From an uncultured virus (IMG/VR IMGVR_UViG_3300042556_001362) (Duplodnaviria; Heunggongvirae; Uroviricota; Caudoviricetes), in the IMG/VR virus record IMGVR_UViG_3300042556_001362: a stretch of 64,000 nt of DNA; one strand, 5' to 3'. The notes under the pieces were generated by a model, which worked only from the letters and a program-made list of their open reading frames with translations, was not told the origin of the DNA and made no database searches. Of the stretch, positions 8,975 through 58,936 are shown piece by piece. The number at the start of each line of letters is the position of its first letter. The first letter of the stretch is position 1. The position numbers and the translations under genes are program-made.

Positions 8975-8975
8975 T

Positions 8976-9266: not shown

Positions 9267-9441
9267 TTATAAAATCCCTTTTCTTTCTTTTGGGTGGTAT
9301 TAGTCCAACTTTTGATATATGTTTTTTAGAACACATCCAAGTTGCATCTCCAGTTTCTTTCCAATATCTTAAAGACAAGACTTCTTCTTGACAAGTTTTG
9401 CATGGAAACTTTCCTGGATAAACAGTAAACTCTTTAGACAT
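9259..9441 (-). CDS. Small zinc-ribbon protein
   Basis: CKTC...WMCSKKH; overlaps both neighbours. Confidence 0.55.
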   Translation of the reverse strand: MSKEFTVYPGKFPCKTCQEEVLSLRYWKETGDATWMCSKKHISKVGLIPPKRKKRDFINE

Positions 9442-15328: not shown

Positions 15329-16049
15329 ATTTTTTACTTGTCCAATAGTTATGCTTATAAAATCTTTCAAATTTAGAATTTACATTGTCAGCACTAATTA
15401 AAATATTTTTTTTACTAAAATTGTTTAATTTTGTAATCCAAGAATCTCTTTTAATTGGAATAATTTGAACAATTGGAGTTCCTTTTTCTATAATACCCTC
15501 AAAACCATTTTTAATAAAAAATGGAAATAATAATTTATTTGGATGTTTATCTGTATCTACAAACCCATTTAATGTAAAAAATGGAAGATCGTATCTGTGA
15601 GAAGGATGAGTTACCCATAAACTATAACCTGCAGGAGTTTTTATAATCCACTCTGGATTCCACCTATAAAGTTGTGGGAAAAATCCCTCTGGTGATGGAT
15701 AGTTTCCAAGTACCTCTAGTGATTGTGTATCTGCAATTTCAAAACTAACATTCCAAGAAATATGAGGGCTGTATCCTTCTGATGATTTGTTAACAACAAT
15801 AATGTCTGCTGGCAATGTAATCATATAACCAGAAGTAATTGAGTCAACTAGCGGAGTGCACATTTTATAGGTTTGTACAAAAAGAGATTTTTTAAAAGCA
15901 TTAAAATATTTATTTTCATTGTTAGAATAAAGTTTTTGTTTTTTATACCAATTAGGAACATGCCTATATCCTGGGCTTGGATGATCTGCTACTAGTTCAA
16001 TATTTTCAAGATATGGTTGAAAGATAATCTTTTTCTTTTTATTAAACAT
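15321..16049 (-). CDS. DUF6065/dUTPase-fold-like protein (paralog of 53852-54619)
   Basis: VPNWYK, TYKMCTP..D..TSGY, WIIKTPAGYS, DLPF, GFVDTD, KGTPIVQIIPIKRDSW. Confidence 0.6.
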   Translation of the reverse strand: MFNKKKKIIFQPYLENIELVADHPSPGYRHVPNWYKKQKLYSNNENKYFNAFKKSLFVQTYKMCTPLVDSITSGYMITLPADIIVVNKSSEGYSPHISWNVSFEIADTQSLEVLGNYPSPEGFFPQLYRWNPEWIIKTPAGYSLWVTHPSHRYDLPFFTLNGFVDTDKHPNKLLFPFFIKNGFEGIIEKGTPIVQIIPIKRDSWITKLNNFSKKNILISADNVNSKFERFYKHNYWTSKKYE

Positions 16050-46382: not shown

Positions 46383-48425
46383 CTAATATAACTTAATCTC
46401 GCATGCGTCTGTTGAACAGTATTTCTCAGACTCAGCATCAAGATTGTCCTTGCCATCATAAATAGCAGACCAATCAATTTTGCCAATTGTTCCAACATAG
46501 GCATTATATTCTTCTTTTGTTATTTGAGTATATGGCTGTTGAGGATATGTCTTGTTGCCCATTGGTAAAAATGATACTGCTTTTAATTGACCCTCATACA
46601 TATGGAGTGCTGGAGCAATATGTTTAGACTCTAATTCTTTATCAAATGAAAGAGTTACAGATACGCCATTGTCAGACCAATACTTTTGAGCAGTTGCTGC
46701 CAAACCAATCTTTTCAAAAAGACTTACATCTTTTTCAGATCTTGGATGTCCAGATGCTACTGGGAAATATACCACTGAAGTGTTTGCAGATACTAGGTCT
46801 GCTTCAATTTTATACCCTGCCGCTTTAAATAAATGAAGCATTGGGTCTGTATTACCAAACCTAATAGCACGAAGATAAAATGCTCCTCCAGGACCCCAAT
46901 GAACTCCAGGAGTTGCACCAGAAAGTAATGATACAGAGCCAGAAGGTTTAACGGTAGTTACACGAATTGATTCACGTACACATAACCATTCTGAATATGA
47001 GTGATCGTATGCACGAATCTTTTTATACCCTTCGTCCATCCACTCACGAATTACTGGCATACCTTTTGTGTCTGCAAATGAAGCAATACCAGTTAGAGAT
47101 GTTCCGATACGACGATTACGTTGCATAATTCCGTTTGTAGTTTGCCAATGTGTTGGCATTAACGTAACAGTCTTGCCATATAAATATGCAAACTTTAATG
47201 TACGAAGAAAATCTTCTTTATCTTCATGACGGTTTAAATGAACTTCTACAAGAGTGCATAACTCGTAAGACTCTAGTGGTTGCTCAGCACATGGATTAAA
47301 TCCCATAACTCTAGAATCTTTATAATCTGGAGCATCTGCTAGTCTTCCATAATCCCTAGCAACATCTAGCCAAATAAATCCTGGCTCACCATTATCTGCA
47401 ATTAAATCAACATAGTTTTCATATTTTGTTCCAACCTCTGCAGCAATAGAATTATTAGACATCCATGCCCATCCTGGATTTTTTGAATCAAATGAGTTTC
47501 TATCTGGAAAAACCTCTGCATTTTTTAAATTAATAAAATCCTTATCTTCTGGTAATCCTAAAGCCAAGGTAGCAGAACGACGAACATTTCCAGACACAAC
47601 ACATGTACCAATAAGATTAATAATATCTACAATTGCTCTGGAATCAAGTTTTTCTTCTACTCTACCACCAATTACTGCGTCTATCTTGTTATGTAGTGCA
47701 ATAAGTGGTGCTGGACCGCTAGCAACCCCTCCAAAGCCTTTTATGGGGGCACCTAGAGGACGGATAAGGTCATAGTTAAACTTCTGTATAGCCTGATTAG
47801 GTCGCAGGTATGAGTTTAAAAGCATTCTTACAGAATCTACCCATCCTTCACGAGTATCTGGAATATCCCATATATTTTGTGGTTCTGTTGGAGCATAAAT
47901 AGGCATTTCTTTGTCTTGACCAATAGTGTCAAACCCTACACCTATACCTAACATTAAAGCATCCATTACCCAAGCAAACAAGGCTCCTGGATCATTACGA
48001 TCAATATCACGAGTAGATACCATTGCACAATTTTGAAGGGAAGCAGAATTACGTTTTTCCATAGTCATGGGGGTTCCAAATGCCCACAAACCACGACCTG
48101 GTGGTGTCCATTTTAATTCAAACATTCTTTGAAATGCTTCTTGGGCAGATTTTTGTGCTTTGTTGTCATTCCAGGGTAGGCGATTATCTTTAGCATGGTT
48201 TTTTTGTACTGAGTACATTCCTTCAATTACCCGCTTACAAACCTCATGCCATCTTTCTTTTGTTCCATCTTCTTTCATACGGGAGTATGTTCGTATAAAG
48301 GTGATCTCCCCCAGTGAGTTAGAGCCTGCGTCTGTAAATCCAAAAGGTGCTGGCACTGTAGAGTATTTGTTTACAAACTCATCTGACAAACGAAAAGAAA
48401 AGATATCCAACATTGATTTTTCCAA
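46383..48425 (-). CDS. nrdJ: Class II (adenosylcobalamin-dependent) ribonucleotide reductase, monomeric RTPR type
   Basis: PPGRGLW, LQNC, VVSGNVRRSA, NPCAEQ, ELCTL, TTVKPSGS, C-terminal CSTDAC; start may be 48413. Confidence 0.93.
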   Translation of the reverse strand: MEKSMLDIFSFRLSDEFVNKYSTVPAPFGFTDAGSNSLGEITFIRTYSRMKEDGTKERWHEVCKRVIEGMYSVQKNHAKDNRLPWNDNKAQKSAQEAFQRMFELKWTPPGRGLWAFGTPMTMEKRNSASLQNCAMVSTRDIDRNDPGALFAWVMDALMLGIGVGFDTIGQDKEMPIYAPTEPQNIWDIPDTREGWVDSVRMLLNSYLRPNQAIQKFNYDLIRPLGAPIKGFGGVASGPAPLIALHNKIDAVIGGRVEEKLDSRAIVDIINLIGTCVVSGNVRRSATLALGLPEDKDFINLKNAEVFPDRNSFDSKNPGWAWMSNNSIAAEVGTKYENYVDLIADNGEPGFIWLDVARDYGRLADAPDYKDSRVMGFNPCAEQPLESYELCTLVEVHLNRHEDKEDFLRTLKFAYLYGKTVTLMPTHWQTTNGIMQRNRRIGTSLTGIASFADTKGMPVIREWMDEGYKKIRAYDHSYSEWLCVRESIRVTTVKPSGSVSLLSGATPGVHWGPGGAFYLRAIRFGNTDPMLHLFKAAGYKIEADLVSANTSVVYFPVASGHPRSEKDVSLFEKIGLAATAQKYWSDNGVSVTLSFDKELESKHIAPALHMYEGQLKAVSFLPMGNKTYPQQPYTQITKEEYNAYVGTIGKIDWSAIYDGKDNLDAESEKYCSTDACEIKLY

Positions 48426-48575
48426 CTTTCTATTAAAAAATTTTATTAGCGCTTTACTAATCGTAAAGTAATCCTAGTATATCACAACATTAAAACAAAA
48501 ATTTACACGTAAACAATAAAGTAAATGTTTACTTTAGGGTTAAGTACTTATATAAAGTAAAAGTTGTACTCATTA

Positions 48576-49241
48576 TCAAAACTTACGACTATTTATATTA
48601 CACATCTCTATTTGATTTATATTTACATGTTTTGGCAGAGATCCAACCCAATAAATTGCGTTTGCTAAATCTTCTGCAGATAGGGCGTCATCTCTTTTTT
48701 GTTCTTGAGTATCGATTGTAGCAGGACAGATTTCAGTTATTTTTATATTATATTCAGGAAATTCTAACCTCATCGTGTCCACCAAACCTCTTTGCCCACG
48801 TTTAGCATTGGTGTAGTTTCCCCCTCCCCAATAAGGAATCTTTCCACCAAAAGACGTTACAAACACAATAGTTGCAGACTCTGACCTTTTTAAACATGGC
48901 ACAAATAATTGAGATAAATACATTGGCCCTGTTACATTAACATCATATGCCCGTTTAAAATTTTCTGGAGTTTCATTAATTATTTTTGTAGGACTGACCC
49001 CACCTCCAGCATTATTTACTAAAAGATCAATAGTTATATCTTTGTAAGTTTCAAAAAACTTTTCTATTTCTGGAAAATCTGTTATATCTAATTTATAAGT
49101 TTCAACATTTTCTGAAATTAATTCTGAAATTTTTGATAAGTTTCTGGATACTGCTATAACTTTATATCCATTTTCAGATAAAAGTTTTACAGTTGCATAT
49201 CCAACACCCTTGCTAGCACCAGTTACTATTGCCGTTTTCAC
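48576..49241 (-). CDS. Short-chain dehydrogenase/reductase
   Basis: TGASKGVG, NNAG, S...YTNAK, C-terminus PKHVNI resembling the YdfG subgroup. Confidence 0.9.
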   Translation of the reverse strand: MKTAIVTGASKGVGYATVKLLSENGYKVIAVSRNLSKISELISENVETYKLDITDFPEIEKFFETYKDITIDLLVNNAGGGVSPTKIINETPENFKRAYDVNVTGPMYLSQLFVPCLKRSESATIVFVTSFGGKIPYWGGGNYTNAKRGQRGLVDTMRLEFPEYNIKITEICPATIDTQEQKRDDALSAEDLANAIYWVGSLPKHVNINQIEMCNINSRKF

Positions 49242-49251
49242 CTATACTGAC

Positions 49252-49869
49252 CTAGTGAATCCAGTGTTGAGGAACCATTATCTTTTCGCCACTTTTAACT
49301 AAGTGTGCTGTATGGTGATACGGTGGTGAAGGAGGAAAAACAATAATACTTCCTGCCTTTGGCTTTACATAAAAACTATAATTTCCATTATTTTTTGCTT
49401 CTTCAAAATCTGACTCTGGGCTAGGCTGAGTCAATACTCCTTCTGGAGAGGCAATTGTAAAAGAAATTTCTCCACCCTCATAATCATCATTTAAGTACAT
49501 AACAAAAGAAACTTTAAGTCTTTCGTCACCCTCTTGTTGGTCAAAGTGAGCCCCCATGTATGTTCCAGGCATATATTTTTTAATTGGATACTGAGGGAAT
49601 AATTTTGGCTCATCTGTAATTCCTTGTGCTTTGGCATAGTCTCTTGCTACATCATCAAATGCTTTTTGTAATGTTTTATATATATAATCATTTTCTAATG
49701 ACTCGACAATATTTTTATCTGTTCCATACACATATTCCTGTCCACTACAAGCCATCCACTCACCCCAAGGATTCTTGTTATCATTTTCAATTGCTTCAAC
49801 AAGTTTTTTAGGATCTTCTATTACATTTGTGTAATAATAGACTTTTTCTTCAAGTATTTCTTTATCCAT
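49252..49869 (-). CDS. 2OG-Fe(II) oxygenase (P4H-like)
   Basis: HFD...YLNDDYEGGEI...PKAGSIIVFP...HTAHLVKSGEK. Confidence 0.9.
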   Translation of the reverse strand: MDKEILEEKVYYYTNVIEDPKKLVEAIENDNKNPWGEWMACSGQEYVYGTDKNIVESLENDYIYKTLQKAFDDVARDYAKAQGITDEPKLFPQYPIKKYMPGTYMGAHFDQQEGDERLKVSFVMYLNDDYEGGEISFTIASPEGVLTQPSPESDFEEAKNNGNYSFYVKPKAGSIIVFPPSPPYHHTAHLVKSGEKIMVPQHWIH

Positions 49870-49880
49870 GGCATTCTCCT

Positions 49881-50540
49881 TTAGTATTTATTTTTAACAT
49901 AGTGGTCTACTTCTTTTATAAAGCCAACCAAAACATATCTTATTGGTCCCTCACCAACATGTCTTACTCCATGCTCATATTTTTCATTTCCTGGAAAAAT
50001 TAAAAGTTCTCCTGGTTTTGGCCTTAATTCTAAATTAAGATTTTCAAAAAACAGTTCTCCCTTATTGTAATCATCATTAAGATATAGTATTGTAGCGTAT
50101 TTAATTGATGGATCAGTATGTTGGTCTGTATGGTGTTTTAGTTCAATTCCAGGCTGCATTCTTTGAATAGTAGCAAAACCGCTTAAATGTGTACTTGGGT
50201 CTGATTCTACAACCATGTCATTAAGTCTTTTATAAAAAGGCTTATACTCTTTATAATGTGAAATGTTTAAATTTTTATCAGCCCAGTTTTGAGTAATTTC
50301 AAATTTGCCTTCAGCAACAAGATTTTCAACATCATCTCTACCAAATTTTTCCATACAAAATCTTGGTAAATTTGATAGATATTCCACTTCCCAATCTGCT
50401 TGAGATGCTTCATTAATTTTACTCCATATAAAATCTACTTCTTCTTTTAATGGATAGTTTTTAACTAATAATAACTCTTCTGTTATTTCTTCAAATTCAT
50501 AATTATTTTTTGCTAATTGTTGCTTAAGGTTATTAATCAT
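49881..50540 (-). CDS. 2OG-Fe(II) oxygenase (P4H-like)
   Basis: HTD...YLNDDYNKGEL...PKPGELLIFPG...HGV....GPIRY; start at 50540 after GAGGAG. Confidence 0.9.
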   Translation of the reverse strand: MINNLKQQLAKNNYEFEEITEELLLVKNYPLKEEVDFIWSKINEASQADWEVEYLSNLPRFCMEKFGRDDVENLVAEGKFEITQNWADKNLNISHYKEYKPFYKRLNDMVVESDPSTHLSGFATIQRMQPGIELKHHTDQHTDPSIKYATILYLNDDYNKGELFFENLNLELRPKPGELLIFPGNEKYEHGVRHVGEGPIRYVLVGFIKEVDHYVKNKY

Positions 50541-50541
50541 C

Positions 50542-51288
50542 CTATATCTCCTCTGGTTTATACTTATTTCCATACACGTCTATTTTCCACCCTTGCTTAA
50601 GCAATTCTTGCCACTCTGCTCTTTCAATTTCTTGTTTTGCTCTGGTTTCTTTCATTTCTGCTGCCCAGGCATCTCTTAGTTCTTGTGGATATGCATCTTC
50701 TTCACGGTCATCCCAAAAAGAACCTATGGTATATCTAACACCATTAGTAATAAGTGTCACTTCATGCATATTATTAAATCCACCATCAAATGCGGCAAGC
50801 GTTCCAACTCTAGGTTGAATATTTAAATCTTGATTTGGAAATTGTAAAAGGCCTCCATCAAAATTATCATTTAAATATAAAAATGCTGCATACCTACTTC
50901 TAGTAAACGCTCCAGAATTTCCATGTTCATCTGTATTATCAGAATGAATTCTAGCGTAAGCCCCTGGCTCCCATTTTTGTGTATGATATCCAATTTGACA
51001 AATTATTTTTGGATCAAGATCATGAACACTTGCAACTGCATTTATAATTCCTTGTTTAATTTCTGAAAAAATATTAGGACTAAGACCTTCATTAATAACA
51101 TCTTCATCATTATCTTTTGGCAATACAGATGAGTAAGATTCATAAAAAGATATAGGCATCCAAGTAATTTTACCAGCATCTGCATGTTTGTCTAAAACTT
51201 TTATTAATTTTGCACAAGTATCTTCATCTATAAAATTTTCATAAATTACAATATCTTTGGTTAATCTTTTTTTATTATTTAAATTCAT
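50542..51288 (-). CDS. 2OG-Fe(II) oxygenase (P4H-like)
   Basis: HSD...YLNDNFDGG...HEVTLITNGVRY. Confidence 0.9.
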   Translation of the reverse strand: MNLNNKKRLTKDIVIYENFIDEDTCAKLIKVLDKHADAGKITWMPISFYESYSSVLPKDNDEDVINEGLSPNIFSEIKQGIINAVASVHDLDPKIICQIGYHTQKWEPGAYARIHSDNTDEHGNSGAFTRSRYAAFLYLNDNFDGGLLQFPNQDLNIQPRVGTLAAFDGGFNNMHEVTLITNGVRYTIGSFWDDREEDAYPQELRDAWAAEMKETRAKQEIERAEWQELLKQGWKIDVYGNKYKPEEI

Positions 51289-51959
51289 GGTTTTCTATCT
51301 CCAGTATGTTCTATAATTTCCCAAAAAAATGGACAGGTGTATCGAATACCACTCTTAATCTCTGTTACTCCGTGAACATAATTCATATCCCCTGGGAAAA
51401 AATATGCTGCACCCTTTTTTGGTTTAAACTGAACACCTTGCAATGGGAAGTATAACTCTCCACCCTCATAGTCTTCGTTTAAATAAAATAGGCTTGAAAG
51501 ATCATAGTTTGGAAAATCATTAGGAAGTCCAGCATCTGGACCTTCATGTAATTCTTTATCTGCATGAGGATTTTGAAATTGTCCTGGAAGCCATCTAACA
51601 ATAGTTGTGCCAGTAGGAATAACTTTTACCTTATAAAACTCTTCAACAATTGGTTGTAATCTTTGAAACAATCCAGCAATAACTGGTGCAATTTTAGGAT
51701 CATTTTTATCTAATGTTGGAGAGGTTGCAACCCTATCTTTCCAATAATCAGAATCGTATACAACTGTGCCATTTTCATTAACATGTGTTTCTGTTACATC
51801 CCATATAGTTATAGACTTAGCAGCCTTTTCTAAGAAATCTATTTCTTCTTGAGTCATAAAGTTTTCTAACTCAACAATCATTTCTTTACTATTTCCAAAC
51901 CACCCAGAAGGTGTCATTGAAGGTTTTCTAACTACTACCGATGCCTGCGTTTTGTCCAT
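51285..51959 (-). CDS. 2OG-Fe(II) oxygenase (P4H-like)
   Basis: HAD...YLNEDYEGGEL...HGVTEIKSGIRY. Confidence 0.9.
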   Translation of the reverse strand: MDKTQASVVVRKPSMTPSGWFGNSKEMIVELENFMTQEEIDFLEKAAKSITIWDVTETHVNENGTVVYDSDYWKDRVATSPTLDKNDPKIAPVIAGLFQRLQPIVEEFYKVKVIPTGTTIVRWLPGQFQNPHADKELHEGPDAGLPNDFPNYDLSSLFYLNEDYEGGELYFPLQGVQFKPKKGAAYFFPGDMNYVHGVTEIKSGIRYTCPFFWEIIEHTGDRKP

Positions 51960-51965
51960 AATTTT

Positions 51966-51974
51966 ATTATATCA
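51966..51974 (-). promoter_or_regulatory. Extended -10 promoter TGATATAAT (likely leaderless mRNA)
   Basis: 6 nt before ATG 51959. Confidence 0.6.
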
Positions 51975-51990
51975 TAGGGTTTTATATCCC

Positions 51991-52446
51991 CTATAACTCC
52001 ATCTGTATTTCTAATTGCTTTAAAAATCTATTTGGGTCAAATCTCCAATTATCCTTAGCAAATGAGGTTACAATTTTAACACATAACTCCTCATAATCTT
52101 TTTTATCTAACTTATCTTTAACTGAATGCAACGCCTCGACAGTATCTATATAGTTTTGCCTAACAAAAGATGGATCTCCAGCATGGTTTCTTCTTAAAAT
52201 TTTAGTATCAACTTTCCCGTTTGGATAATATAAAGATATTTTTTGATGTTGTTTTGCAAATCCTGCATCTTGATACATTTCATATCCCTCTATAGCCTCT
52301 TCTAAACTGTAAAAAGATACAATAGACCTTATTGTTTCTTCTTCATCTCTACATACTGTCAATAAATAATGATATACTTTTTCATTTTTAATTTTGTTAA
52401 GATATTCATTAAGAATATACGTATTTGATGTATTTAATTGACTCAT
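51991..52446 (-). CDS. Hypothetical protein
   Basis: 151 aa ORF inside the oxygenase island; C-terminal FAKDNWRFDPNRF. Confidence 0.6.
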   Translation of the reverse strand: MSQLNTSNTYILNEYLNKIKNEKVYHYLLTVCRDEEETIRSIVSFYSLEEAIEGYEMYQDAGFAKQHQKISLYYPNGKVDTKILRRNHAGDPSFVRQNYIDTVEALHSVKDKLDKKDYEELCVKIVTSFAKDNWRFDPNRFLKQLEIQMEL

Positions 52447-53159
52447 AATGTTGTGTTTGGTAATTTATCTTTTACATAAAGTTTTAAAACTTTAACCTCA
52501 TGATTACCTAAAGACTCTCCCTTTTCATTTATAGCATCCCTATACCAATCAGTCCAACCTCCAGTAGAATTTATTTTTTGTGCTGCCTCGCCATATGAAA
52601 TATTTGCATTTGTTCTTAATCTTTCTTCGTCTTTCCATTCTAACATTTCAATTGTAGTATTATTTAAATTTGTTAAAGATATTGGAATTATAGTTGCTAA
52701 TGGAGTTCCTGCTTTTATAATTACTCTTTCATTTGCCTTTTTTACTTTAATTGCTAAGGGCAATGGATTATCATAAAAAGAAGTACTAATTATATTTGAC
52801 ATTGTTTCAAAATATTCATTAAAATAATTAACTGGATTTATTGTTAAAATACTTATATCGTTATCTGTTTTAAAAATTAAACTAGTATTGAAACTTATTG
52901 ATGATTGTCCTCTTCCGCCATAAGCCCCCGAAGGACTAAATATTTCAACATGTTCGCTAGTTTGATCATTAATCCCATCCCAAATAAAATCAATATCTTC
53001 CAAACAAGAAAGGCTCCAGCCAACAACATTGGCCTGAGTTACTGGGAAACACCTGTATGCATGTTTTTCTGATGTATTATCCATCCAATCTCTTTTAATT
53101 GACATTGGAGTAATAACAAAATTACACCCAGGCATTTTTTCAACTGATATATTTAACAC
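52443..53159 (-). CDS. DUF6065 family protein
   Basis: KRDWMD...HAYRCFPVTQANVVGW...KAGTPLATIIP; GTG start overlapping the upstream TAG. Confidence 0.75.
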   Translation of the reverse strand: MLNISVEKMPGCNFVITPMSIKRDWMDNTSEKHAYRCFPVTQANVVGWSLSCLEDIDFIWDGINDQTSEHVEIFSPSGAYGGRGQSSISFNTSLIFKTDNDISILTINPVNYFNEYFETMSNIISTSFYDNPLPLAIKVKKANERVIIKAGTPLATIIPISLTNLNNTTIEMLEWKDEERLRTNANISYGEAAQKINSTGGWTDWYRDAINEKGESLGNHEVKVLKLYVKDKLPNTTL

Positions 53160-53842
53160 TACTCATTGTCCCATTTTGGATCATACATGTCTGGTGTGTG
53201 ATATTTTTTACTGTAGTCTAACATTGTTACAATAGAATATTTTGTTCCAGAGTGAACGGGCATTGCCTGATGTGGATACATAAAATTAGAGGGGAATATA
53301 TAAAGATCTCCAGCCTTTGGTTTAATATTTAAATTCTGCAATCTAAAATACAACTCTCCGCCATCGTAGTCATCATTAACATATGCAACTAAAGAAACTG
53401 TGCAATTATAAGAATACCCATGATCATGATGCTCTTTAAAATGTTGTTTTGGACCATACTTAATAAAATTAAAAGCCTCCCAATATTTTAATTTCATAAT
53501 ATTGTAGTCTCGTCTATAGTCTTCAACGGCTGCTGCCTGAGCATCGTAAACGTCTTGCCAGAGTTCCTGTAGTTTTAGTGAATCTTCACTTTTATCTTGT
53601 TCTATATCAGTTTTTTTAAATTTAAAATCTACACAATCTCTATAGTCAGGCATTAATTGTTGATAACCTACGTATGCTGGCATCCAATGGTATGCTTTTC
53701 CTTCTGATGATAACTCTCCATACCCAGCAACAGAACCCAAAGTGCTTTCAAGTCTATTAATTACATCAAATTCTTTTTTTATTACTCCACGATAGCAGGT
53801 TATTCCCTGTCCAAGACTTTCTTTTTCTGTCCATGTTTGCAT
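53159..53842 (-). CDS. 2OG-Fe(II) oxygenase (P4H-like)
   Basis: HHD...YVNDDYDGGEL...FPSNFMYPHQAMPVHSGTKY. Confidence 0.9.
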   Translation of the reverse strand: MQTWTEKESLGQGITCYRGVIKKEFDVINRLESTLGSVAGYGELSSEGKAYHWMPAYVGYQQLMPDYRDCVDFKFKKTDIEQDKSEDSLKLQELWQDVYDAQAAAVEDYRRDYNIMKLKYWEAFNFIKYGPKQHFKEHHDHGYSYNCTVSLVAYVNDDYDGGELYFRLQNLNIKPKAGDLYIFPSNFMYPHQAMPVHSGTKYSIVTMLDYSKKYHTPDMYDPKWDNE

Positions 53843-53851
53843 TTTATCCCC

Positions 53852-54619
53852 CTATTTATATTCTCTTTTTGTCCATACTTTACTTTTATATACCCCGCCG
53901 TCAGGCTGTCTATAAAAACTTGCATTATTTACCATTTTATCATACATTTCTGATTGATTTAAAATATCAATTTCATGTTGCCAATCTTCTCTTTTAAATG
54001 GAAGAATTTGTAGATAAGGAGTTCCTGCAGGCAGGGTTCCTTCCCAACCATCTGCAATAAAAAATGGAAAACTACCTAAAAGATGAACTTTATCTGAATC
54101 TACAATACCAGTAGTATTTATAAAAGGTAAGTCAAATCTATTCATGGGCGTCATGAATAAAGCGCTATAGCCTTCTGGTAGTTCTATTCCCCAATCTGGC
54201 ATCCAAGCAAAATGGTTTTTATAAAATCCTTTAGGGTGTTCAAATTGTGGCATTGCTGGCCTTGCGCTACAAAAATCTTTAAACTTTATATCATCTACCT
54301 TAACATCAATTGTGCCTTTAGAATTTTTAAAAAATGTTAAGTCACATGGAGTTTTAAAAGTATATCCCGTCATAAATGCATCTAGAATTGCTGGACAAGC
54401 CTTCCAGGTTGGAATCTTGCCGTAATCATCTTTGGTTCCTGGCTTTGGAAAAGGACAAACCTCTTTTGGTGCTTTATAATATTCTCCATTTGGCATTTTT
54501 GCAAATCTATCTGCATCTTTATACCATTGGGGAATTATGTCTTGTGTTGGAACTGGAACAGAAATACTTTTTTTATTTAACCAAGGTCTAAATGATCTAA
54601 ACTTAACAACTAAAGACAC
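53852..54619 (-). CDS. DUF6065/dUTPase-fold-like protein
   Basis: IPQWYK, TWKACPAILD...GY, LPEGYS, RFDLPF, GIVDSD, AGTPYLQILPFKREDW. Confidence 0.6.
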   Translation of the reverse strand: MSLVVKFRSFRPWLNKKSISVPVPTQDIIPQWYKDADRFAKMPNGEYYKAPKEVCPFPKPGTKDDYGKIPTWKACPAILDAFMTGYTFKTPCDLTFFKNSKGTIDVKVDDIKFKDFCSARPAMPQFEHPKGFYKNHFAWMPDWGIELPEGYSALFMTPMNRFDLPFINTTGIVDSDKVHLLGSFPFFIADGWEGTLPAGTPYLQILPFKREDWQHEIDILNQSEMYDKMVNNASFYRQPDGGVYKSKVWTKREYK

Positions 54620-55332
54620 TACTTATGTCCTAATTCATTGATGTCCGTCATAACTACAACACAATATTTTGCTCCATTTTTCATTGGCAAAGATGCATGT
54701 TCGTAAATATAGTTAGATGGACAAAGCAAGATATCCCCTATTTTTGGAGTATGAGTATAGTTATTAAATCTTGGAAATCTAATCTCTCCACCTTCATAAT
54801 CATCATTAATATATATTACTGCAGAAACTGTACAATTATATGCTGGTCCATGATCTGCGTGGATATTAAAGTGTTTACCTTCACCCTCATATTTTACAAA
54901 ATTAAACGCTTCATAATATACTATATGTATTCCCCAATATTTTGCATAATCATCAACACAAAACTTTAATTTTTGATATATTTCTTCATGTAGATCAAGA
55001 AGTTCCGCATTATGCTCATTCCTTAAACCTAAATTTTCTTTTTTATATTTAAAATCAACACAATCTCTTGCTTTTTTTATTGGTTTTTCTGAGTTTGTAA
55101 CTGTTGCATCTGACCACTTATATTTACCGCCACTATTTAAATTAGATTCAAGTATTTTTATATATCTTTCAGAATCTTCTTTTGAAAATACATTTCTGTA
55201 TAAATTTATACCCAATTCTGGATTTTCAACTACAATATTATTTCCTATAGTTTTTACTGGATATCTATTTGTTGATGTTTCTGATCTATCTTTAGTAAAC
55301 CATGGTATTTGATTTTCATCTTCATATATCAT
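54619..55332 (-). CDS. 2OG-Fe(II) oxygenase (P4H-like)
   Basis: HAD...YINDDYEGGEI...PSNYIYEHASLPMKNGAKY; paralog of 53159-53842; likely start 55332, TGATACAAT at 55359-55367. Confidence 0.9.
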   Translation of the reverse strand: MIYEDENQIPWFTKDRSETSTNRYPVKTIGNNIVVENPELGINLYRNVFSKEDSERYIKILESNLNSGGKYKWSDATVTNSEKPIKKARDCVDFKYKKENLGLRNEHNAELLDLHEEIYQKLKFCVDDYAKYWGIHIVYYEAFNFVKYEGEGKHFNIHADHGPAYNCTVSAVIYINDDYEGGEIRFPRFNNYTHTPKIGDILLCPSNYIYEHASLPMKNGAKYCVVVMTDINELGHK

Positions 55333-55392
55333 ATAAATTATCTCCGTCTCTTTATTATATTGTATCATAAAAAAATGTTTTATTTATTAAAC

Positions 55393-55444
55393 AATAAAAG
55401 TAATAAAAAATATTTAATTTATATTATTTTTTATTACTTTTATT
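55393..55444. repeat. 20-bp perfect inverted repeat in an almost pure A/T spacer
   Basis: AATAAAAGTAATAAAAAATA (55393-55412) / TATTTTTTATTACTTTTATT (55425-55444). Confidence 0.85.
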
Positions 55445-55494
55445 ATTTTTTTATTTGTTTAAAAAAAGATTAACCAAACATAATGTTACTGTTC

Positions 55495-56298
55495 TTACTG
55501 GAATATAATGTTACCGCCACCGAAACCTGGGAAGAACGGGAAGAATGGTGGGAAGAACGGGAAGAATGGTGGGAAGAATGGGAAGAACGGTGGGAAGAAT
55601 GGGAAGAACGGGAAGAATGGTGGGAAGAACGGGAAGAATGGTGGGAAGAACGGGAAGAATGGTGGGAAGAATGGGAAGAACGGTGGGAAGAATGGTGGAA
55701 AAAATGGAGGAGTAGTTACACTACCTGATGCATTTGAGGTTCCTGAGTTACCATTATCGTTAGTTGCATAAACTGTATAAGTTTGTGAAGTATTTGCTTC
55801 TTGAGTAACATTAACACTTGTTGTTCCTGAACCTACTGTAGCGCCTTTTCCATCAGAAGATGCCCAAGTATATCCAGTAATTGCTTTACCACCATTTGCA
55901 GGGGCAGTCCAAGAAACATTATCATTCAATGCTGAAGTTGTTACGCTTGGTGCAGAAGGTGTTGCTGGTACTGTAGTTGCTGTAATAGAGTTAGAGGCAG
56001 ATGAATCAAGTGATGAACCTGATAGGTTATTTCCTTTAACGGTAAATGTATAAGATGTATTGGATTGCAATCCTTCAATTGTTATAGGTGAAGAAGAGCC
56101 AGTTGCTGTATAACCACCTGGTGATGATGTAACTGTAAAAGATGTTGCTGGCGCTCCTGCTCCTTCAGAAAAGGTTACAGTGGCAGCACCGTTGTTAAAT
56201 GCACGAGATGTTCCCACATCAGTTGCTGTTCCAATTGTTGGGATGCCAGGAGCACCCTTCGCAGAGGAACTAATGGTGCCCAGAATATCTGTTGCCAT
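55495..56298 (-). CDS. Two-FN3-domain protein with C-terminal Pro/Phe repeat
   Basis: FN3 signatures (GLQSNTSYTFTVKG; VSWTAPANGGKAITGY) then 9 PPFF + 8 PFF units + PGFGGGNIIFQ. Confidence 0.85.
   Translation of the reverse strand: MATDILGTISSSAKGAPGIPTIGTATDVGTSRAFNNGAATVTFSEGAGAPATSFTVTSSPGGYTATGSSSPITIEGLQSNTSYTFTVKGNNLSGSSLDSSASNSITATTVPATPSAPSVTTSALNDNVSWTAPANGGKAITGYTWASSDGKGATVGSGTTSVNVTQEANTSQTYTVYATNDNGNSGTSNASGSVTTPPFFPPFFPPFFPFFPPFFPFFPPFFPFFPPFFPFFPFFPPFFPFFPPFFPFFPPFFPFFPGFGGGNIIFQ
55528..55710 (-). repeat. Coding tandem repeat (9/12-bp units) encoding (P)PFF
   Basis: GGGAAGAAT/GGGAAGAAC/GGT units on the plus strand; 183 bp = 61 codons, all Pro or Phe. Confidence 0.95.
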
Positions 56299-56327: not shown

Positions 56328-58424
56328 CTAACTAATATCTCCTACAACGTACCAAACATCTGAACCTTCATATACGCATGTTGCTGAAGAATACTGAGCA
56401 CGAAGTTTTGGAGCAGTAGCGGTTGCACCAGTGCTTCTAATAGTAACTCCAGAGCCTTGTGCAAAAGTAACTTGGCCTGCACCTTTTTGAAGAACAGTTA
56501 TCTGTGATCCAGTTGCGTAAGCAACATCACCTGATGGTGGAATAGTAACTGTAATTGCTGAACCATTAGAGGCTGTTACAACTTTTCCAGCATCACCTAA
56601 AACAAGTGTGTATGTTGTTCCAGTTTGAGCATTAAGTCCTAGATTAATTTTAGGGGCTGTTAAAGTTTTGTTTGTTAAGGTTTCTGCTACATCTTTTAAC
56701 AATGTACCGTTTAGATAAAGTGATTTTCCAGATGCTAAATTAATATGCTCGGAAGATGTCCAAGCGTCTGTAGCGTCAACCCAGTTAAAGGTTTTATCAG
56801 TTGCGCCTTTAAGTGTAATACCACCGCCATCTGCTGTTGTGTCAGTTGGTGATGTTACATCTCCAAGGATTATATTCTTGTCTTCAACAACTAAATTAGT
56901 TGAGTTAATGTTTGTTGTAGTTCCACTTACAGTCAAATCTCCACTAAGTGTTAAATTTGCTGCAGATACTGTTCCTGTAAATGTTGGATCTGCTAAAGGT
57001 GCTTTGGCAGCAAGATCTGTAGTTAATCCAGAAATTTTAGACTGAGCAATTGCTGCAGAGGCATTAATATCTCCATCAACAATAGTTCCATCAGTAATCA
57101 TTGTGCTTGTAACTGTTCCAGTGTCTCCAGTAGTAACAAAGTTAGAATCTGAAAGAGCAGTATTAAATTCGGCTGTTGTTCCGCTTACAGTATTTGTTGC
57201 TAAAGAAATAGATTTGTTAGAAAATGTATTTGTTGATGTTGCGCTAACTGTAATATCGGTTGTAAAAGCAATTGTTCCTGAAGCATCTGGAATTGTAATT
57301 GTTCTGTCAGCAGTTGGATCTACAACAGTTAATGTGGTTTCAAAATCATTTGGTGTAGAACCTTCAAGAACAATGCTTCCATCGGTAATTTGTAGATTGC
57401 TTACTAGTGGACTTGTTAGTGTTTTGTTGGTAAGGGTTTGTGTAGCAGTATCAACAACAAGTGTTCCTGCTGCATCAGGGAATGAAATAGTTATATCAGA
57501 GGTTGGATCTCCCGCAGCAAGAGTAAGTTCATGATCGTTTGCTGTAGTACCTTCAAAAACAACTGATGTACTTAGTACTCCAACAGAAGTAATATCTGAA
57601 AGGTTGCCAGTTGTAATTACTGTACCAGTTACGTCTGGAAGTGTAATAGTACGATCTGCTGTTGGGTCTTGTGCTTGCACAGTAGTTTCAAATTCATTTG
57701 GTGTTGCACCCTCAAATATAATTTGACCAGAAAATACTCCAGTATTAGTAATATCGGACATATTTCCAGTTGTAATTACTGTACCGCTAGCATCTGGGAA
57801 AGTAATTACACGATCTTCAGTTGGATCTCCTGCAGAAAGTGTTAATTCAAAATCATTTGGAGTAGTTCCTTCCATTGTAATGGTTGAACTAAATATTCCA
57901 AGGGCTGTAATATCTGAAAGGTTGCCAGTTGTAATTACTGTACCAGTTACGTCAGGGATTGTAACTGTACGGTCTGCGGTTGGATCTGTAAATTGAAGAG
58001 TAGTTTCAAATGCATTTGCTGTCGCACCTTCCACAACAATTGAACTATCTGAAATTATAAGTCCTGAAATTGATGGACCTTGTAAAGTTTTATTTGTAAG
58101 TGTTTCATGTGTATCACGAAGAACAAGTTGTCCACTTGCATTTGGAATTGTAATTGTGCGATCTTCGGTTGGATCTTCTACTGATAAAGTAGTTTCATAA
58201 GAGTCGGCGGTAGCGCCTTCAAAAGTAATGCTTGTACCAAAAGCAGGATTTGCAGTTGAGTTGGCATCAATAAAATAGTCTATGTCTGCCCAGTGATTTG
58301 TTCCATCACCAATTTTAAATTTATTTGTGTCTGACTCCCACCCCATTTCACCAGCATTTAATACTGGATTTGCTGATGTCCATTGAGCCGCAGTACCTCT
58401 GCGTTGCTGCATTCTGGTTGCCAT
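56328..58424 (-). CDS. Tail fibre protein with Mtd/hyaluronidase-type N-terminus
   Basis: QQRRGTAAQWTSANPVLNAGEMGWESDTNKFKIGDG; six EG.T...E.T....DPT.D..IT.P...G repeats; TLTNKTL repeats; C-terminus WYVVGDIS. Confidence 0.8.
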   Translation of the reverse strand: MATRMQQRRGTAAQWTSANPVLNAGEMGWESDTNKFKIGDGTNHWADIDYFIDANSTANPAFGTSITFEGATADSYETTLSVEDPTEDRTITIPNASGQLVLRDTHETLTNKTLQGPSISGLIISDSSIVVEGATANAFETTLQFTDPTADRTVTIPDVTGTVITTGNLSDITALGIFSSTITMEGTTPNDFELTLSAGDPTEDRVITFPDASGTVITTGNMSDITNTGVFSGQIIFEGATPNEFETTVQAQDPTADRTITLPDVTGTVITTGNLSDITSVGVLSTSVVFEGTTANDHELTLAAGDPTSDITISFPDAAGTLVVDTATQTLTNKTLTSPLVSNLQITDGSIVLEGSTPNDFETTLTVVDPTADRTITIPDASGTIAFTTDITVSATSTNTFSNKSISLATNTVSGTTAEFNTALSDSNFVTTGDTGTVTSTMITDGTIVDGDINASAAIAQSKISGLTTDLAAKAPLADPTFTGTVSAANLTLSGDLTVSGTTTNINSTNLVVEDKNIILGDVTSPTDTTADGGGITLKGATDKTFNWVDATDAWTSSEHINLASGKSLYLNGTLLKDVAETLTNKTLTAPKINLGLNAQTGTTYTLVLGDAGKVVTASNGSAITVTIPPSGDVAYATGSQITVLQKGAGQVTFAQGSGVTIRSTGATATAPKLRAQYSSATCVYEGSDVWYVVGDIS

Positions 58425-58464
58425 TTATTACTCCTTTGGTGTATGTATATATTATAACAGATAA

Positions 58465-58917
58465 TTAATTAAAATTATCAACAGCCGTTCCACCATCATA
58501 TGTTGCTTCAAATGATGCTGTATTATATAGCCCACCACTTACAAGAACTCCTGGCTCGTTGTATGCTCCACCACTAATAAAAGTACTTACGATTAAACCA
58601 TTTCCGTCAATTGCTGTATCATGAATGTGATCTTGAAGTGATTCTGCATCTTCTAATGTTGCAATTGCAAGCCATTCACCACTGTAGTAAACATGTACAC
58701 GTTCTGTTAATGTATCAAACCATAAATTTCCATTTGCTGGAGTTGCTGGCTTTGTTGTTCCAATTGTTGGGGTTCCAACTGCTGTATCTACATATAGTTT
58801 TGTTGCTGCATGTGCATTTTGAGTAGGTGTGGCAACTGTAACAGTTCCTCCAAAAGTACCGCCTTCGGCAACGTTAATGCCGTGCTTTACTCTAAAGTCC
58901 TTATTTACGGTTGCCAC
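58465..58917 (-). CDS. Small tail-fibre-associated protein
   Basis: HAATKLYVD, PATPANGNLWFDT; N-terminus shared with 58937-61063. Confidence 0.6.
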   Translation of the reverse strand: MATVNKDFRVKHGINVAEGGTFGGTVTVATPTQNAHAATKLYVDTAVGTPTIGTTKPATPANGNLWFDTLTERVHVYYSGEWLAIATLEDAESLQDHIHDTAIDGNGLIVSTFISGGAYNEPGVLVSGGLYNTASFEATYDGGTAVDNFN

Positions 58918-58936
58918 TTCCGACCTCTATTTCTAT

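What the first reader, a model, noticed from the sequence alone, without database searches (positions are those of the whole stretch)
48576..56298. Candidate phage protein-modification system: Pro/Phe-repeat FN3 substrate followed by six P4H-like oxygenases, two DUF6065-like proteins and an SDR
Seen in sequence: right after the tail-fibre genes, an FN3 protein ends in 61 consecutive Pro/Phe residues. Ten co-oriented genes follow: six 2OG-Fe(II) oxygenases, each with intact HxD...H and a K/R 2OG-binding residue, two DUF6065-like proteins, one hypothetical and one SDR. Established: this oxygenase clade includes prolyl 4-hydroxylases, which act on polyproline-II peptides. Inference: the layout looks like substrate plus tailoring enzymes. 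The divergent oxygenases may hydroxylate different Pro positions or Phe beta-carbons, and the SDR may further oxidise or epimerise the hydroxyls, decorating a virion appendage.
Basis: partly seen in the sequence, partly recalled or inferred. Interest (0 to 1): 0.92.

Follow-up and report, generated by a model that had tools for sequence, protein, structure and literature searches.

The report
Phage Pro-Phe stalk with hydroxylase battery
An uncultured lake phage ends a tail-fibre-region protein in 61 residues of pure proline and phenylalanine. Six collagen-type proline-hydroxylase-like enzymes are encoded right behind it. Related phages have both features or neither, so the tract is a strong but chemically unproven candidate substrate.

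Summary
On the minus strand, after three fibre genes, lies an FN3 protein (55495-56298) with a 61-residue P/F tract. A tight operon follows: six PF13640 oxygenases with intact HxD...H plus K/R, two DUF6065-like proteins, one unknown protein and one SDR.

This scan has reported the same system on at least 13 other windows, always as "testable, unproven".

New here:
- Phages with the same backbone whose FN3 gene lacks the tract also lack the array (12 of 12). Short tracts go with 1-2 oxygenases (4 of 4). Long tracts go with 3 or more (67 of 70); two of the three exceptions (L027, L050) have the array moved elsewhere on the contig, in L027's record behind another tract gene, and the third (L087) was not followed up.
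- On the tree of the neighbouring RNR gene, well-supported branches force at least 4 state changes, and the array follows the tract. There are too few pairs for significance (p = 0.125).
- Accessory genes in relatives are of protein or glycan tailoring kinds: JmjC, Asp/Asn beta-hydroxylase, SPASM radical-SAM, glycosyltransferases and O-methyltransferases.
- The DUF6065-like proteins have a dUTPase fold and match Syn9 gp43.

Against the reading: no chemistry has been shown, all carriers belong to one broad phage lineage, and Syn9 and bacteria carry the enzyme families without any tract. I put Pro hydroxylation of the tract at about 0.45.

The parts
55495..56298 (-). FN3 protein with C-terminal Pro/Phe tract (267 aa); the candidate substrate
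   Evidence: ORF. Pfam fn3 34.7 bits. 311 confirmed relatives in IMG/VR.
55528..55710 (-). P/F tract, residues 197-257, made of PFF and PPFF units. It is followed by an 11-residue tip, GFGGGNIIFQ.
   Evidence: Across relatives the units are PPFF 1724, PFF 1562, PPYF 120 and PYF 95, and Pro codons vary synonymously. The 4 of 4 indels inside the tract in lake runs are 3 nt long.
54619..55368 (-). Oxygenase 1 (249 aa), PHD/P4H-type. It overlaps the next gene by 1 nt.
   Evidence: PF13640 38.6 bits. AF2 model pLDDT 84.4. Best folds are PHD2, PiuC, PPHD, Cr-P4H, vCPH and BaP4H. The profile hits BaP4H at E 2.4e-5.
53852..54619 (-). DUF6065-like protein a (255 aa), dUTPase fold, invariant Cys75
   Evidence: phrog_7084 E 4.4e-31. 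AF2 pLDDT 95.2. VIA Z 9.1 to dUTPases. Invariant columns.
53159..53842 (-). Oxygenase 2 (227 aa). It overlaps the next gene by 1 nt.
   Evidence: PF13640 57.2 bits. BaP4H E 2.8e-5, with LH3 and mimivirus lysyl hydroxylase next.
52443..53159 (-). DUF6065 protein b (238 aa)
   Evidence: PF19541 94.4 bits. phrog_7084.
51991..52446 (-). Unknown 151-aa protein, present in only part of the relatives
   Evidence: No Pfam or PHROG hit. The Atlas returns only viral hypothetical clusters.
51285..51959 (-). Oxygenase 3 (224 aa)
   Evidence: PF13640 37.2 bits. Hits BaP4H, PiuC, vCPH 5c5t and human C-P4H alpha-2.
50542..51288 (-). Oxygenase 4 (248 aa)
   Evidence: PF13640 38.1 bits. Prolyl 3-hydroxylase 1 E 9.3e-6 and BaP4H E 1.8e-5.
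49881..50573 (-). Oxygenase 5 (230 aa)
   Evidence: PF13640 43.2 bits. BaP4H E 0.039, weak.
49252..49869 (-). Oxygenase 6 (205 aa)
   Evidence: PF13640 41.0 bits. Chain 4iw3_A at E 0.036, weak; one search's listing titles 4iw3 as Pseudomonas putida prolyl-4-hydroxylase with EF-Tu.
48576..49241 (-). Classical short-chain dehydrogenase (221 aa); an optional accessory gene
   Evidence: adh_short 140.6 bits. TGASKGVG and YTNAK are visible in the sequence. Present in 24 of 47 complete arrays.
56328..61063 (-). Fibre-gene block upstream (708 aa, 150 aa, 698 aa), co-oriented; 29 nt separate it from the FN3 gene
   Evidence: Tail-fibre PHROG hits and Mtd_N.
46383..48425 (-). Class II ribonucleotide reductase; the downstream border of the module
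   Evidence: Pfam RNR_Alpha and phrog_367. Used as the backbone marker.
15321..16049 (-). Third DUF6065-like copy (242 aa) between primase and DnaB helicase, outside the finding
   Evidence: phrog_7084 E 3.9e-39. In tract-less relatives this subtype sits right after the FN3 gene, before RNR.

Best explanation
The region is a phage 'Pro-Phe stalk plus hydroxylase battery' module.

The P(P)FF tract is a low-complexity stalk. It joins FN3 domains of a fibre-region protein to an exchangeable distal tip. In this window the tip is 11 residues; elsewhere it is a Cys-rich knot, a basic tail, a further FN3 domain or a Hint/intein-like domain.

The operon behind it encodes six diverged PHD/P4H-type Fe(II)/2-oxoglutarate oxygenases. 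These most likely hydroxylate prolines of that tract after translation, and possibly other positions. That would turn a polymer with no polar side chain into a more soluble, stiffer polyproline-II-like rod. In some relatives the new hydroxyls may be glycosylated or methylated.

The two dUTPase-fold DUF6065-like proteins are translationally coupled to oxygenases 1 and 2. They act as partners of unknown chemistry; a uridine-nucleotide or nucleotide-sugar binding role is only a guess.

Shown: the gene content, the catalytic motifs, the folds, and the co-occurrence and co-variation. Inferred: the substrate, the reaction, the physical effect and the virion location.
For: 1. Enzyme type. All six oxygenases pass PF13640 and keep HxD...H plus K/R. 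Their best solved relatives by sequence are protein prolyl or lysyl hydroxylases, and no nucleic-acid oxygenase appears. The OX1 model matches PHD2 best (E 1.1e-8, TM 0.63/0.72), then PiuC, PPHD, algal and chlorovirus P4H.

2. Tract-first sampling. In IMG/VR loci found by the tract's DNA pattern or by the FN3 protein, almost every locus with 3 kb or more downstream shows OX-DUF-OX-DUF followed by 3-7 further oxygenases.

3. Array-first sampling. Of loci found with the DUF protein, 49 of 49 with at least 2.5 kb upstream have a tract within 4.5 kb upstream on the same strand.

4. Apparent exceptions.
- In G002, the record holding L027, the array lies elsewhere (first oxygenase match at 7883) and a tract lies just upstream of it at 7310-7378. 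In G003, the record holding L050, 7 PF13640 matches lie elsewhere on the contig; no tract was sought there.
- In the complete genome G006 the order is tract gene, array, fibres, RNR.
- So the array keeps to a tract gene while its position relative to the fibres changes.

5. Natural experiment among 86 distinct FN3 proteins at the same backbone position.
- No tract: 0 oxygenases in 12 of 12.
- Tract under 30 residues: 1-2 oxygenases in 4 of 4.
- Tract of 30 or more: 3 or more oxygenases in 67 of 70.
- The other three are L027 and L050 (array elsewhere on the contig, point 4) and L087, an upstream second tract gene.

6. RNR tree of 43 rows. The tract state needs 6 changes, and starred branches force at least 4. 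In 4 independent pairs the array goes the same way in 3.8 and the other way in 0.

7. Coding selection on the tract. Units are strictly P(P)[F/Y]F, and Pro third positions vary among CCA, CCG and CCT. The 4 of 4 population indels inside the tract are 3 nt long.

8. Accessory genes inside arrays of relatives are of protein or glycan tailoring kinds: Asp/Asn beta-hydroxylase, JmjC, SPASM radical-SAM, two glycosyltransferase families, and TylF and FkbM methyltransferases.

9. Precedent. The PBCV-1 virus P4H hydroxylates Pro-Ala-Pro-Lys repeats (passage in PMC3634087).
Against: - No chemistry, expression or virion data exist. No RNA run was listed.
- Tract and array are neighbours, so one recombination event moves both. 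The sign test cannot reach significance (p = 0.125), and the p150 tree forces only 1 change.
- All carriers whose capsid gene I could check are one broad lineage, with MCP identity 78%, 76% and 45%.
- The enzyme families do not need a tract. Syn9 has a dioxygenase array with a DUF6065-like gp43 (hhalign 97%) and 0 tract matches in 177 kb. In 24 bacterial contigs, DUF6065-like genes of about 50% identity have no tract.
- A lone DUF6065-like gene persists in tract-less phages. The window holds a third copy among replication genes.
- Some tract proteins lie far from the array: a 1561-aa protein in G006 is about 38 kb away. One 38-kb fragment, G005, 26% complete, has a tract and no PF13640 hit.
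- Among arrays, oxygenase number does not track tract length (rho 0.20, p 0.18, n 47).
- No P4H known to me acts on P-F-F sequences (recalled).
Confidence: 0.45

Rival explanations
1. The array acts on something other than the tract: a small molecule or non-ribosomal or short peptide (the secondary-metabolite reading of Iyer et al. 2010 for Syn9), free amino acids, or host proteins such as EF-Tu-type targets of bacterial PHD homologues. On this reading it sits next to the tract gene only because both lie in one exchangeable slot between the fibre genes and RNR.
For: - Syn9 carries ten tandem dioxygenases plus a dUTPase-fold Cys protein with no tract.
- Cellular DUF6065-like genes occur with no tract. 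One of the three loci examined has a PF13759 oxygenase beside them.
- Six to ten distinct oxygenases are more than a two-letter polymer obviously needs.
- Oxygenase number does not follow tract length among arrays.
- Best structural matches include PiuC and the EF-Tu-modifying PPHD.
Against: - Presence and absence are shared within one backbone: 12 of 12, 4 of 4 and 67 of 70.
- A relocated array again follows a tract gene.
- The recombination border falls inside the FN3 gene, so the tract travels with the array and not with its own FN3 domains.
- I found no scaffold-building enzyme (NRPS, PKS or ATP-grasp) in the arrays I scanned (69 of the 99 distinct unassigned ORFs were scanned).
Confidence: 0.3
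2. The enzymes modify other virion proteins, such as the fibre proteins upstream or the FN3 domains, rather than the tract. The tract would then be an unmodified hydrophobic stalk or anchor.
For: - The module sits after fibre genes here and in Syn9.
- A lone DUF6065-like gene follows the FN3 gene even without a tract, the usual place of a fibre-assembly factor (recalled).
- Iyer et al. proposed tail-collar and collagen-like proteins as substrates of bacterial dioxygenase operons.
Against: The fibre genes and FN3 domains persist in tract-less phages that have lost, or never had, the array. The one feature that comes and goes with the array is the tract.
Confidence: 0.12
3. The cluster is a nucleotide or DNA modification pathway: dUTPase-fold proteins plus oxygenases plus reductase, next to ribonucleotide reductase.
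For: - The DUF6065-like proteins have a dUTPase/dCTP-deaminase fold (Z 9.1).
- The 255-type keeps an I-V-D-S-D stretch that recalls dUTPase motif 3 (the motif is recalled).
- DUF copies lie beside RNR in tract-less relatives and in halovirus HF2, and between primase and helicase in this window.
- No canonical dUTPase (PF00692) was found in the complete relatives G006 and G007.
Against: - None of the six oxygenases resembles AlkB, TET/JBP or a base hydroxylase. There is only one sub-threshold Tet_JBP hit, 19.8 bits against 34.9.
- The D-x-D stretch is not conserved across the DUF family, whose invariant residues are C, G and Y.
- HF2 has both a canonical dUTPase and the DUF.
- Accessory genes are of protein or glycan tailoring kinds.
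- This reading does not explain the tie to the tract.
Confidence: 0.08

Closest known systems
Tandem dioxygenase array of Synechococcus phage Syn9, gp41-gp54 (Iyer, Abhiman, de Souza, Aravind 2010, PMC2938197; passages read, supplements not seen)
   Same: - Many diverged Fe/2OG dioxygenases in tandem in a phage.
[quoted passage not shown] That protein, gp43, matches this window's DUF6065-like family (hhalign 97%, E 9.5e-11).
- It lies directly after tail-fibre genes.
- Its function is untested.
   Different: - Syn9 has mostly PF13759, JmjC and DUF6445 members and two Trp halogenases. Here all six are PF13640 and there is no halogenase.
- Syn9 has no P/F tract (0 matches). Gly-rich proteins precede its array.
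- The authors proposed secondary-metabolite synthesis and named no protein substrate.
Chlorovirus PBCV-1 prolyl 4-hydroxylase (vCPH, PDB 5c5t) acting on viral Pro-rich repeats
   Same: - A virus-encoded P4H-type enzyme and virus-encoded Pro-rich repeat proteins. It hydroxylates Pro-Ala-Pro-Lys repeats (passage in PMC3634087).
- 5c5t is among the sequence and fold matches.
   Different: - PBCV-1 is a eukaryotic virus with a single enzyme and hydrophilic repeats, and its activity has been shown in vitro.
- Here there are six paralogues plus dUTPase-fold partners and a purely hydrophobic P/F polymer, and no activity has been shown.
Bacterial and protist protein prolyl hydroxylases: B. anthracis P4H (3itq/5hv0), Pseudomonas PPHD (4iw3), PHD2; and the Skp1 PhyA-Gnt1 hydroxylation/glycosylation pathway (PMC3515798, listing and start of abstract only)
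   Same: - These are the best sequence and fold relatives of the window's oxygenases.
- Hydroxyproline followed by glycosylation is a known logic. One DUF6065-like representative is fused to a PF11397 'GlcNAc' glycosyltransferase domain. That this Pfam family holds the Skp1 enzyme is recalled.
   Different: - Those enzymes act singly on defined folded or collagen-like targets.
- The fusion is a single sequence from one contig, and I could not fetch its context.
Hydroxyproline-rich glycoproteins of plants and algae (extensins) with their P4Hs, such as Cr-P4H-1 (2jig/3gze)
   Same: Long Pro-rich polyproline-II rods made soluble and stiff by Hyp and its glycans (recalled). Cr-P4H-1 is among the fold matches.
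   Different: Extensin repeats are Ser-Pro(n) with Tyr cross-links, not P-F-F. They are eukaryotic secretory-pathway proteins.

Membership tests
2OG-Fe(II) oxygenase, PF13640 (P4H/PHD type) | Profile match above the curated cut-off | tested here: met
   6 of 6 pass, 37.2-57.2 bits against 27.
2OG-Fe(II) oxygenase, PF13640 (P4H/PHD type) | HxD...H iron triad and a basic residue for the 2OG C5 carboxylate | tested here: met
   H170, D172 and H224 are invariant in the six-way alignment, and K or R follows about 10 residues after the distal His in all six. The role of the basic residue is recalled.
2OG-Fe(II) oxygenase, PF13640 (P4H/PHD type) | Double-stranded beta-helix fold closest to protein prolyl hydroxylases | tested here: met
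   OX1 only: model pLDDT 84.4. The top Foldseek rows are PHD2, PiuC, PPHD, Cr-P4H, vCPH and BaP4H, E 1e-8 to 1e-6. The other five were not folded.
2OG-Fe(II) oxygenase, PF13640 (P4H/PHD type) | Prolyl hydroxylase activity on a peptide | not testable with these tools
   Needs an enzyme assay or MS.
DUF6065 (PF19541) / phrog_7084 | Profile match | tested here: met
   52443-53159: PF19541 94.4 bits. 53852-54619: no Pfam hit, but phrog_7084 E 4.4e-31. 15321-16049: phrog_7084 E 3.9e-39. The family holds 4877 representatives at E up to 1e-3.
DUF6065 (PF19541) / phrog_7084 | dUTPase-like fold with a conserved cysteine (as described for Syn9 by Iyer et al.) | tested here: met
   Model pLDDT 95.2. The 13 best VIA rows (Z 9.1-6.6) are dUTPases or a dCTP deaminase. 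Cys75 is invariant in 128 sequences.
Trimeric dUTPase / dCTP deaminase enzymes | Conserved catalytic motifs (motif 3 Asp, phosphate-binding motifs 2 and 5) | tested here: inconclusive
   PF00692 does not hit these proteins. An I-V-D-S-D stretch is invariant only in the 255 subtype and is not conserved family-wide. I made no residue-level structural superposition. The motif definitions are recalled.
Syn9-type phage dioxygenase array | Tandem array of several distinct dioxygenases plus a dUTPase-fold Cys protein | tested here: met
   Six paralogues at 19-42% identity. The DUF family matches gp43.
Syn9-type phage dioxygenase array | Tryptophan halogenases and a JmjC (MINA-type) member | tested here: not met
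   None in the window. JmjC members occur in some relatives (L019, L147). No halogenase was seen in the 69 accessory ORFs scanned.
Short-chain dehydrogenase/reductase | adh_short profile, TGxxxGxG and YxxxK | tested here: met
   140.6 bits. TGASKGVG and YTNAK are seen in the translation.
Fibronectin type III domain protein | fn3 profile match | tested here: met
   34.7 bits against 25, residues 38-100. A second Ig-like stretch at 139-189 is sub-threshold (PKD_6 22.3 against 25).

The most novel reading that the evidence does not exclude
Lake phages build an extensin-like appendage. A ribosomally made (P/PP)FF polymer is hydroxylated at many positions by a battery of specialised prolyl-hydroxylase paralogues, and in some phages it is then glycosylated or methylated. 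The dUTPase-fold DUF6065 proteins would be a new kind of nucleotide(-sugar)-binding partner of protein hydroxylases. This would give the first substrate for the phage 2OG-oxygenase arrays, unexplained since Syn9, and a new class of post-translationally modified virion polymer.
Probability: 0.3. Interest if true: 0.9.

Novelty: new variant of a known kind. Interest (0 to 1): 0.72.

Why it matters
Arrays of 2OG oxygenases are among the commonest unexplained genes of aquatic phages. They have been called metabolic 'auxiliary' genes or secondary-metabolite genes (PMC2938197; PMC12774648 notes their likeness to human EGLN3 and names no substrate). This lineage is abundant: tract DNA reaches 3 to 50 times the flanking depth in four lake runs. 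Here the array comes and goes with one peculiar, ribosomally made polymer encoded next to it. That turns an open question into a bench test: co-express the protein and the operon, then weigh the product. If the tract is hydroxylated, phages would join plants and chloroviruses in making hydroxyproline-rich rods. The hydrophobic P/F polymer would be a new material-like protein motif, with a role in adsorption or host range.

Tried and rejected
- Complex prediction (OX1 alignment A2 with DUF alignment A3): the queue was full, and the tool was declared unavailable. Nothing was folded, so whether the oxygenase and DUF bind stays open.
- No RNA holder was listed, so there is nothing on expression.
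- Promoter and terminator scans were no better than shuffles: 46 against 46.6 and 4 against 4.7.
- Megablast of the region and tblastn of the FN3 protein against 50,697 phage records found nothing.
- Alignment A1 was too diverse for a locus search, so I used the single protein instead.
- The p150 tree is too short to resolve: starred branches force only 1 change.
- GT-DUF fusion P0038: it is a singleton cluster and was not found in viral or metagenome contigs. The 'longer' search gave one further fusion, with PF06737. This is a lead only.
- Unknown neighbours of the bacterial DUF genes are not oxygenase-like by hhalign (probabilities 0.3 and 0.7).
- SPASM radical-SAM versus Cys-rich tips: 5 loci, giving only 3 distinct tract proteins with three different tip types, so no association can be judged.
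- Canonical dUTPase is absent from G006, G007 and Syn9 but present in HF2 beside the DUF. This is inconclusive on whether the DUF replaces it.
- The plus-strand ORFs across the tract (55483-55728 and 55508-55771; 'WEEREEWW' and 'GKNGKNG') are shadows of the repeat.

Full report
**What is there.** The window is part of a siphovirus-like phage of about 34% G+C. Almost all its genes lie on the minus strand: terminase, DNA polymerase, primase, helicase, a 2385-aa tape measure, capsid, protease and portal. It is not in the cultured-phage collection by megablast. The virus record G001 is the same phage, with identical proteins. Near-identical DNA stands in 24 lake-water metagenome runs.

At 61063-56328 lie three fibre-type genes. 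After a 29-nt gap comes a 267-aa protein (56298-55495) with an fn3 domain and 61 consecutive Pro/Phe residues, followed by an 11-residue tip. After a further 126 nt, ten co-oriented genes follow with overlaps or gaps of -32 to +31 nt. They are six PF13640 oxygenases, two DUF6065/phrog_7084 proteins, one unknown 151-aa protein and one classical SDR. A class II ribonucleotide reductase comes next. All six oxygenases keep HxD, the distal His and a Lys or Arg about ten residues later, at 19-42% mutual identity.

**The tract is a real, selected coding feature.**
- The DNA is a tandem repeat of period 21/42/72, with 8 pattern matches against 0 in shuffles.
- In 237 distinct tracts from related contigs the units are strictly P(P)[F/Y]F: PPFF 1724, PFF 1562, PPYF 120, PYF 95, and 11 others. 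Tyr occurs only at the first aromatic place.
- Pro codons vary in the third position (CCA 3500, CCG 1523, CCT 557) while Phe is 92% TTC.
- In four lake runs, the 4 of 4 indels inside the tract are 3 nt long, while those in the intergenic spacer are 1 nt.
- Word depth over the tract is 143-1125, against roughly 9-50 in most flanking bins. Many phage genotypes therefore share this DNA.
- Tract length runs from 12 to 181 residues, median 45.

The tract is modular. It is followed by Cys-rich knots (85 of 201 distinct proteins), other short tips (97) or domains longer than 120 residues (19). The longer domains include further FN3 domains and sub-threshold Hint/intein-like domains (Intein_splicing E 2e-5, 24.8 bits against a cut-off of 35.8). 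The tract also occurs inside proteins of 971 and 1561 aa. I read it as a stalk or linker between FN3 domains and an exchangeable tip.

**What the enzymes are.**
- By sequence, the best solved relatives of all six oxygenases are protein hydroxylases: B. anthracis P4H, prolyl 3-hydroxylase 1, lysyl hydroxylase LH3, the mimivirus lysyl hydroxylase, PBCV-1 P4H, human C-P4H alpha-2, PiuC and Pseudomonas PPHD. Two of the six match only weakly, at E about 0.04.
- The OX1 model (pLDDT 84.4) matches PHD2 best (E 1.1e-8, TM 0.63/0.72). Every listed row is of the prolyl-hydroxylase or PKHD type.
- The nearest cultured-phage homologues are the multi-copy oxygenases of cyanomyoviruses, at 26-32% identity in the best-covered rows.
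- The DUF6065-like protein folds with pLDDT 95.2. Foldseek gives only weak dUTPase hits. The exhaustive aligner gives Z 9.1 (rmsd 2.9, 125 residues), and the 13 best rows are all dUTPases or a dCTP deaminase.
- In 128 family members, Cys75, Gly85 and Tyr244 are invariant. The dUTPase-like D-x-D stretch is conserved only in one subtype.
- The family is large: 4877 representatives at E up to 1e-3.

**What is already known.** Iyer et al. [quoted passage not shown] They proposed secondary-metabolite synthesis (passages read). That protein, gp43, matches this family (hhalign 97%, E 9.5e-11). The Syn9 array also lies right after fibre genes. So the pairing of oxygenase array with a dUTPase-fold protein is known.

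The tract is not in print as far as I could search: 'DUF6065' returned 0 papers and 'PPFF' with 'phage' returned 2 irrelevant papers. Syn9 has no tract (0 matches). This scan has reported the same tract-plus-array system on at least 13 other windows, always as testable but unproven. I took from those notes the leads to Syn9 and to the dUTPase fold and checked both myself.

**Does the array belong to the tract?**
- Tract-first sampling: loci found by the DNA pattern or the FN3 protein almost always show OX-DUF-OX-DUF plus 3-7 further oxygenases downstream.
- Array-first sampling: 49 of 49 loci with enough upstream sequence have a tract within 4.5 kb upstream. These DUF proteins are at least 78% identical, so this is one clade.
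- Apparent exceptions: in G002 the array lies 12 kb upstream of the FN3 gene and follows a second tract gene. In the complete 114-kb genome G006 the order is tract gene, array, fibres, RNR.

The most telling result is a natural experiment. Phages with the same backbone (fibres, p150, fibre, FN3 gene, RNR, 1200-aa protein) whose FN3 protein has another C-terminal part instead of a tract have no array between FN3 and RNR.

| Tract state (86 distinct FN3 proteins) | Oxygenases downstream |
|---|---|
| None | 0 in 12 of 12 |
| Under 30 residues | 1-2 in 4 of 4; in three of the four (L054, L057, L071) an OX1/OX2-type oxygenase with one DUF |
| 30 residues or more | 3 or more in 67 of 70 |

Two of the three long-tract exceptions (L027, L050) have the array elsewhere on the contig; the third (L087) was not followed up.

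On a tree of the adjacent RNR gene (43 rows, 676 columns), tract-less phages are scattered. The tree needs 6 changes, and at least 4 are forced by well-supported branches. In 4 independent pairs the array changes with the tract in 3.8 and against it in 0 (p = 0.125, too few pairs). A p150 tree is unresolved.

The border of the exchanged segment lies inside the FN3 gene, so the tract travels with the enzymes and not with its own N-terminal domains. This is what a functional unit would look like. It is also what tight physical linkage would give, so it does not prove the substrate relation.

**Hints on chemistry from relatives.** I scanned 69 of the 99 distinct unassigned ORFs inside or beside arrays. 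They include further PF13640 members, Asp/Asn beta-hydroxylase, JmjC, TauD, SPASM radical-SAM enzymes, two glycosyltransferase families, TylF- and FkbM-type methyltransferases and peroxidase-like proteins. These point to tailoring of a protein or its glycan and not to nucleotide metabolism. The exception is an IMPDH/GMP-reductase gene in two loci. No NRPS, PKS or ATP-grasp scaffold enzyme was seen. One DUF6065-like representative is fused to a PF11397 glycosyltransferase domain, but it is a single sequence whose context I could not fetch.

**What speaks against the reading.**
- There is no chemistry, expression or virion evidence.
- All carriers that I could check share a related capsid protein, at 78%, 76% and 45% identity.
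- The DUF family is not tied to the tract. A lone copy follows the FN3 gene in tract-less phages, and a third copy lies between primase and helicase in this window.
- In halovirus HF2 the DUF lies beside RNR.
- In 24 contigs binned to bacterial MAGs (most titled Gammaproteobacteria, Pseudohongiellaceae or Enterobacteriaceae), one or two copies of about 50% identity have no tract. An oxygenase stood next to them in only 1 of 3 loci examined.
- The dUTPase fold and the RNR neighbourhood keep a nucleotide-linked role for the DUF open. Canonical dUTPase is absent from two complete relatives but present in HF2, which settles nothing.
- Among arrays, the number of oxygenases does not follow tract length (rho 0.20).

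**Verdict.** The finding is real and interesting, and it has been seen before in this scan. The best reading is that the oxygenases hydroxylate the P/F stalk (0.45). The main rival is another substrate with mere linkage (0.30). Smaller rivals are other virion proteins (0.12) and nucleotide chemistry (0.08). The SDR is an optional accessory, present in 24 of 47 arrays. Phe hydroxylation is pure conjecture. Supplements of PMC2938197, which may list family assignments of the Syn9 genes, were not seen.

Noticed in passing
window 15321-16049 (-): A third DUF6065/phrog_7084 gene sits between primase and DnaB helicase, overlapping the primase ORF by 50 nt. It is of the subtype that follows the FN3 gene and precedes RNR in tract-less relatives.
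   Followed up: partly
L289-L297, L299-L313 (MAG contigs, most titled Gammaproteobacteria, Pseudohongiellaceae or Enterobacteriaceae): Chromosome-sized bacterial contigs (up to 2.6 Mb, 41-67% G+C) carry one or two tandem DUF6065-like genes about 50% identical to the phage protein, among housekeeping genes (QueH, RlmL-like, RecQ). Eleven of 24 have two copies. One of the three loci examined has a PF13759 oxygenase and four SnoaL-like genes beside them.
   Followed up: partly
L347 (Halorubrum phage HF2, record 48119-49003): The DUF6065-like gene of haloarchaeal tailed viruses (49 records match) lies divergently next to ribonucleotide reductase and beside the tail module. The same record also has a canonical dUTPase.
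   Followed up: partly
window 55515-55697: In four lake metagenome runs, contig word depth over the tract is 3 to 50 times that of the flanks, and contigs break at the tract. The repeat is shared by many co-occurring phage genotypes and fragments their assemblies.
   Followed up: yes
L075 9986-11560 (tract-less FN3 homologue): It carries a sub-threshold collagen triple-helix repeat (22.3 bits against 27.2) where relatives have the P/F tract, in a phage without the oxygenase array.
   Followed up: no
L147, L022, L134 and others: Some tract proteins continue into a Hint/intein-like domain that begins with Cys right after the tract (sub-threshold Pfam hits). This suggests self-cleavage at the tract's end.
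   Followed up: partly
L204 (Syn9) 8856-12328: In Syn9, extremely Gly-rich proteins (gp36, gp38, gp39; Gly_rich_2) lie between the fibre genes and the dioxygenase/halogenase array. They may be a counterpart of the P/F tract as a low-complexity neighbour.
   Followed up: no
window 6296-6940 and 7776-8630 (-): A ferredoxin-like auxiliary gene (phrog_3704, E 4e-58) and a Cas4-type exonuclease (phrog_1706) lie between the terminase and the recombinase.
   Followed up: no
L282-L286 (genome contigs): Phage contigs of this lineage are binned into MAGs of five unrelated taxa: Luteolibacter, Flavobacteriales, Acidimicrobiaceae (twice) and Beijerinckiaceae. These bins say nothing reliable about the host.
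   Followed up: no
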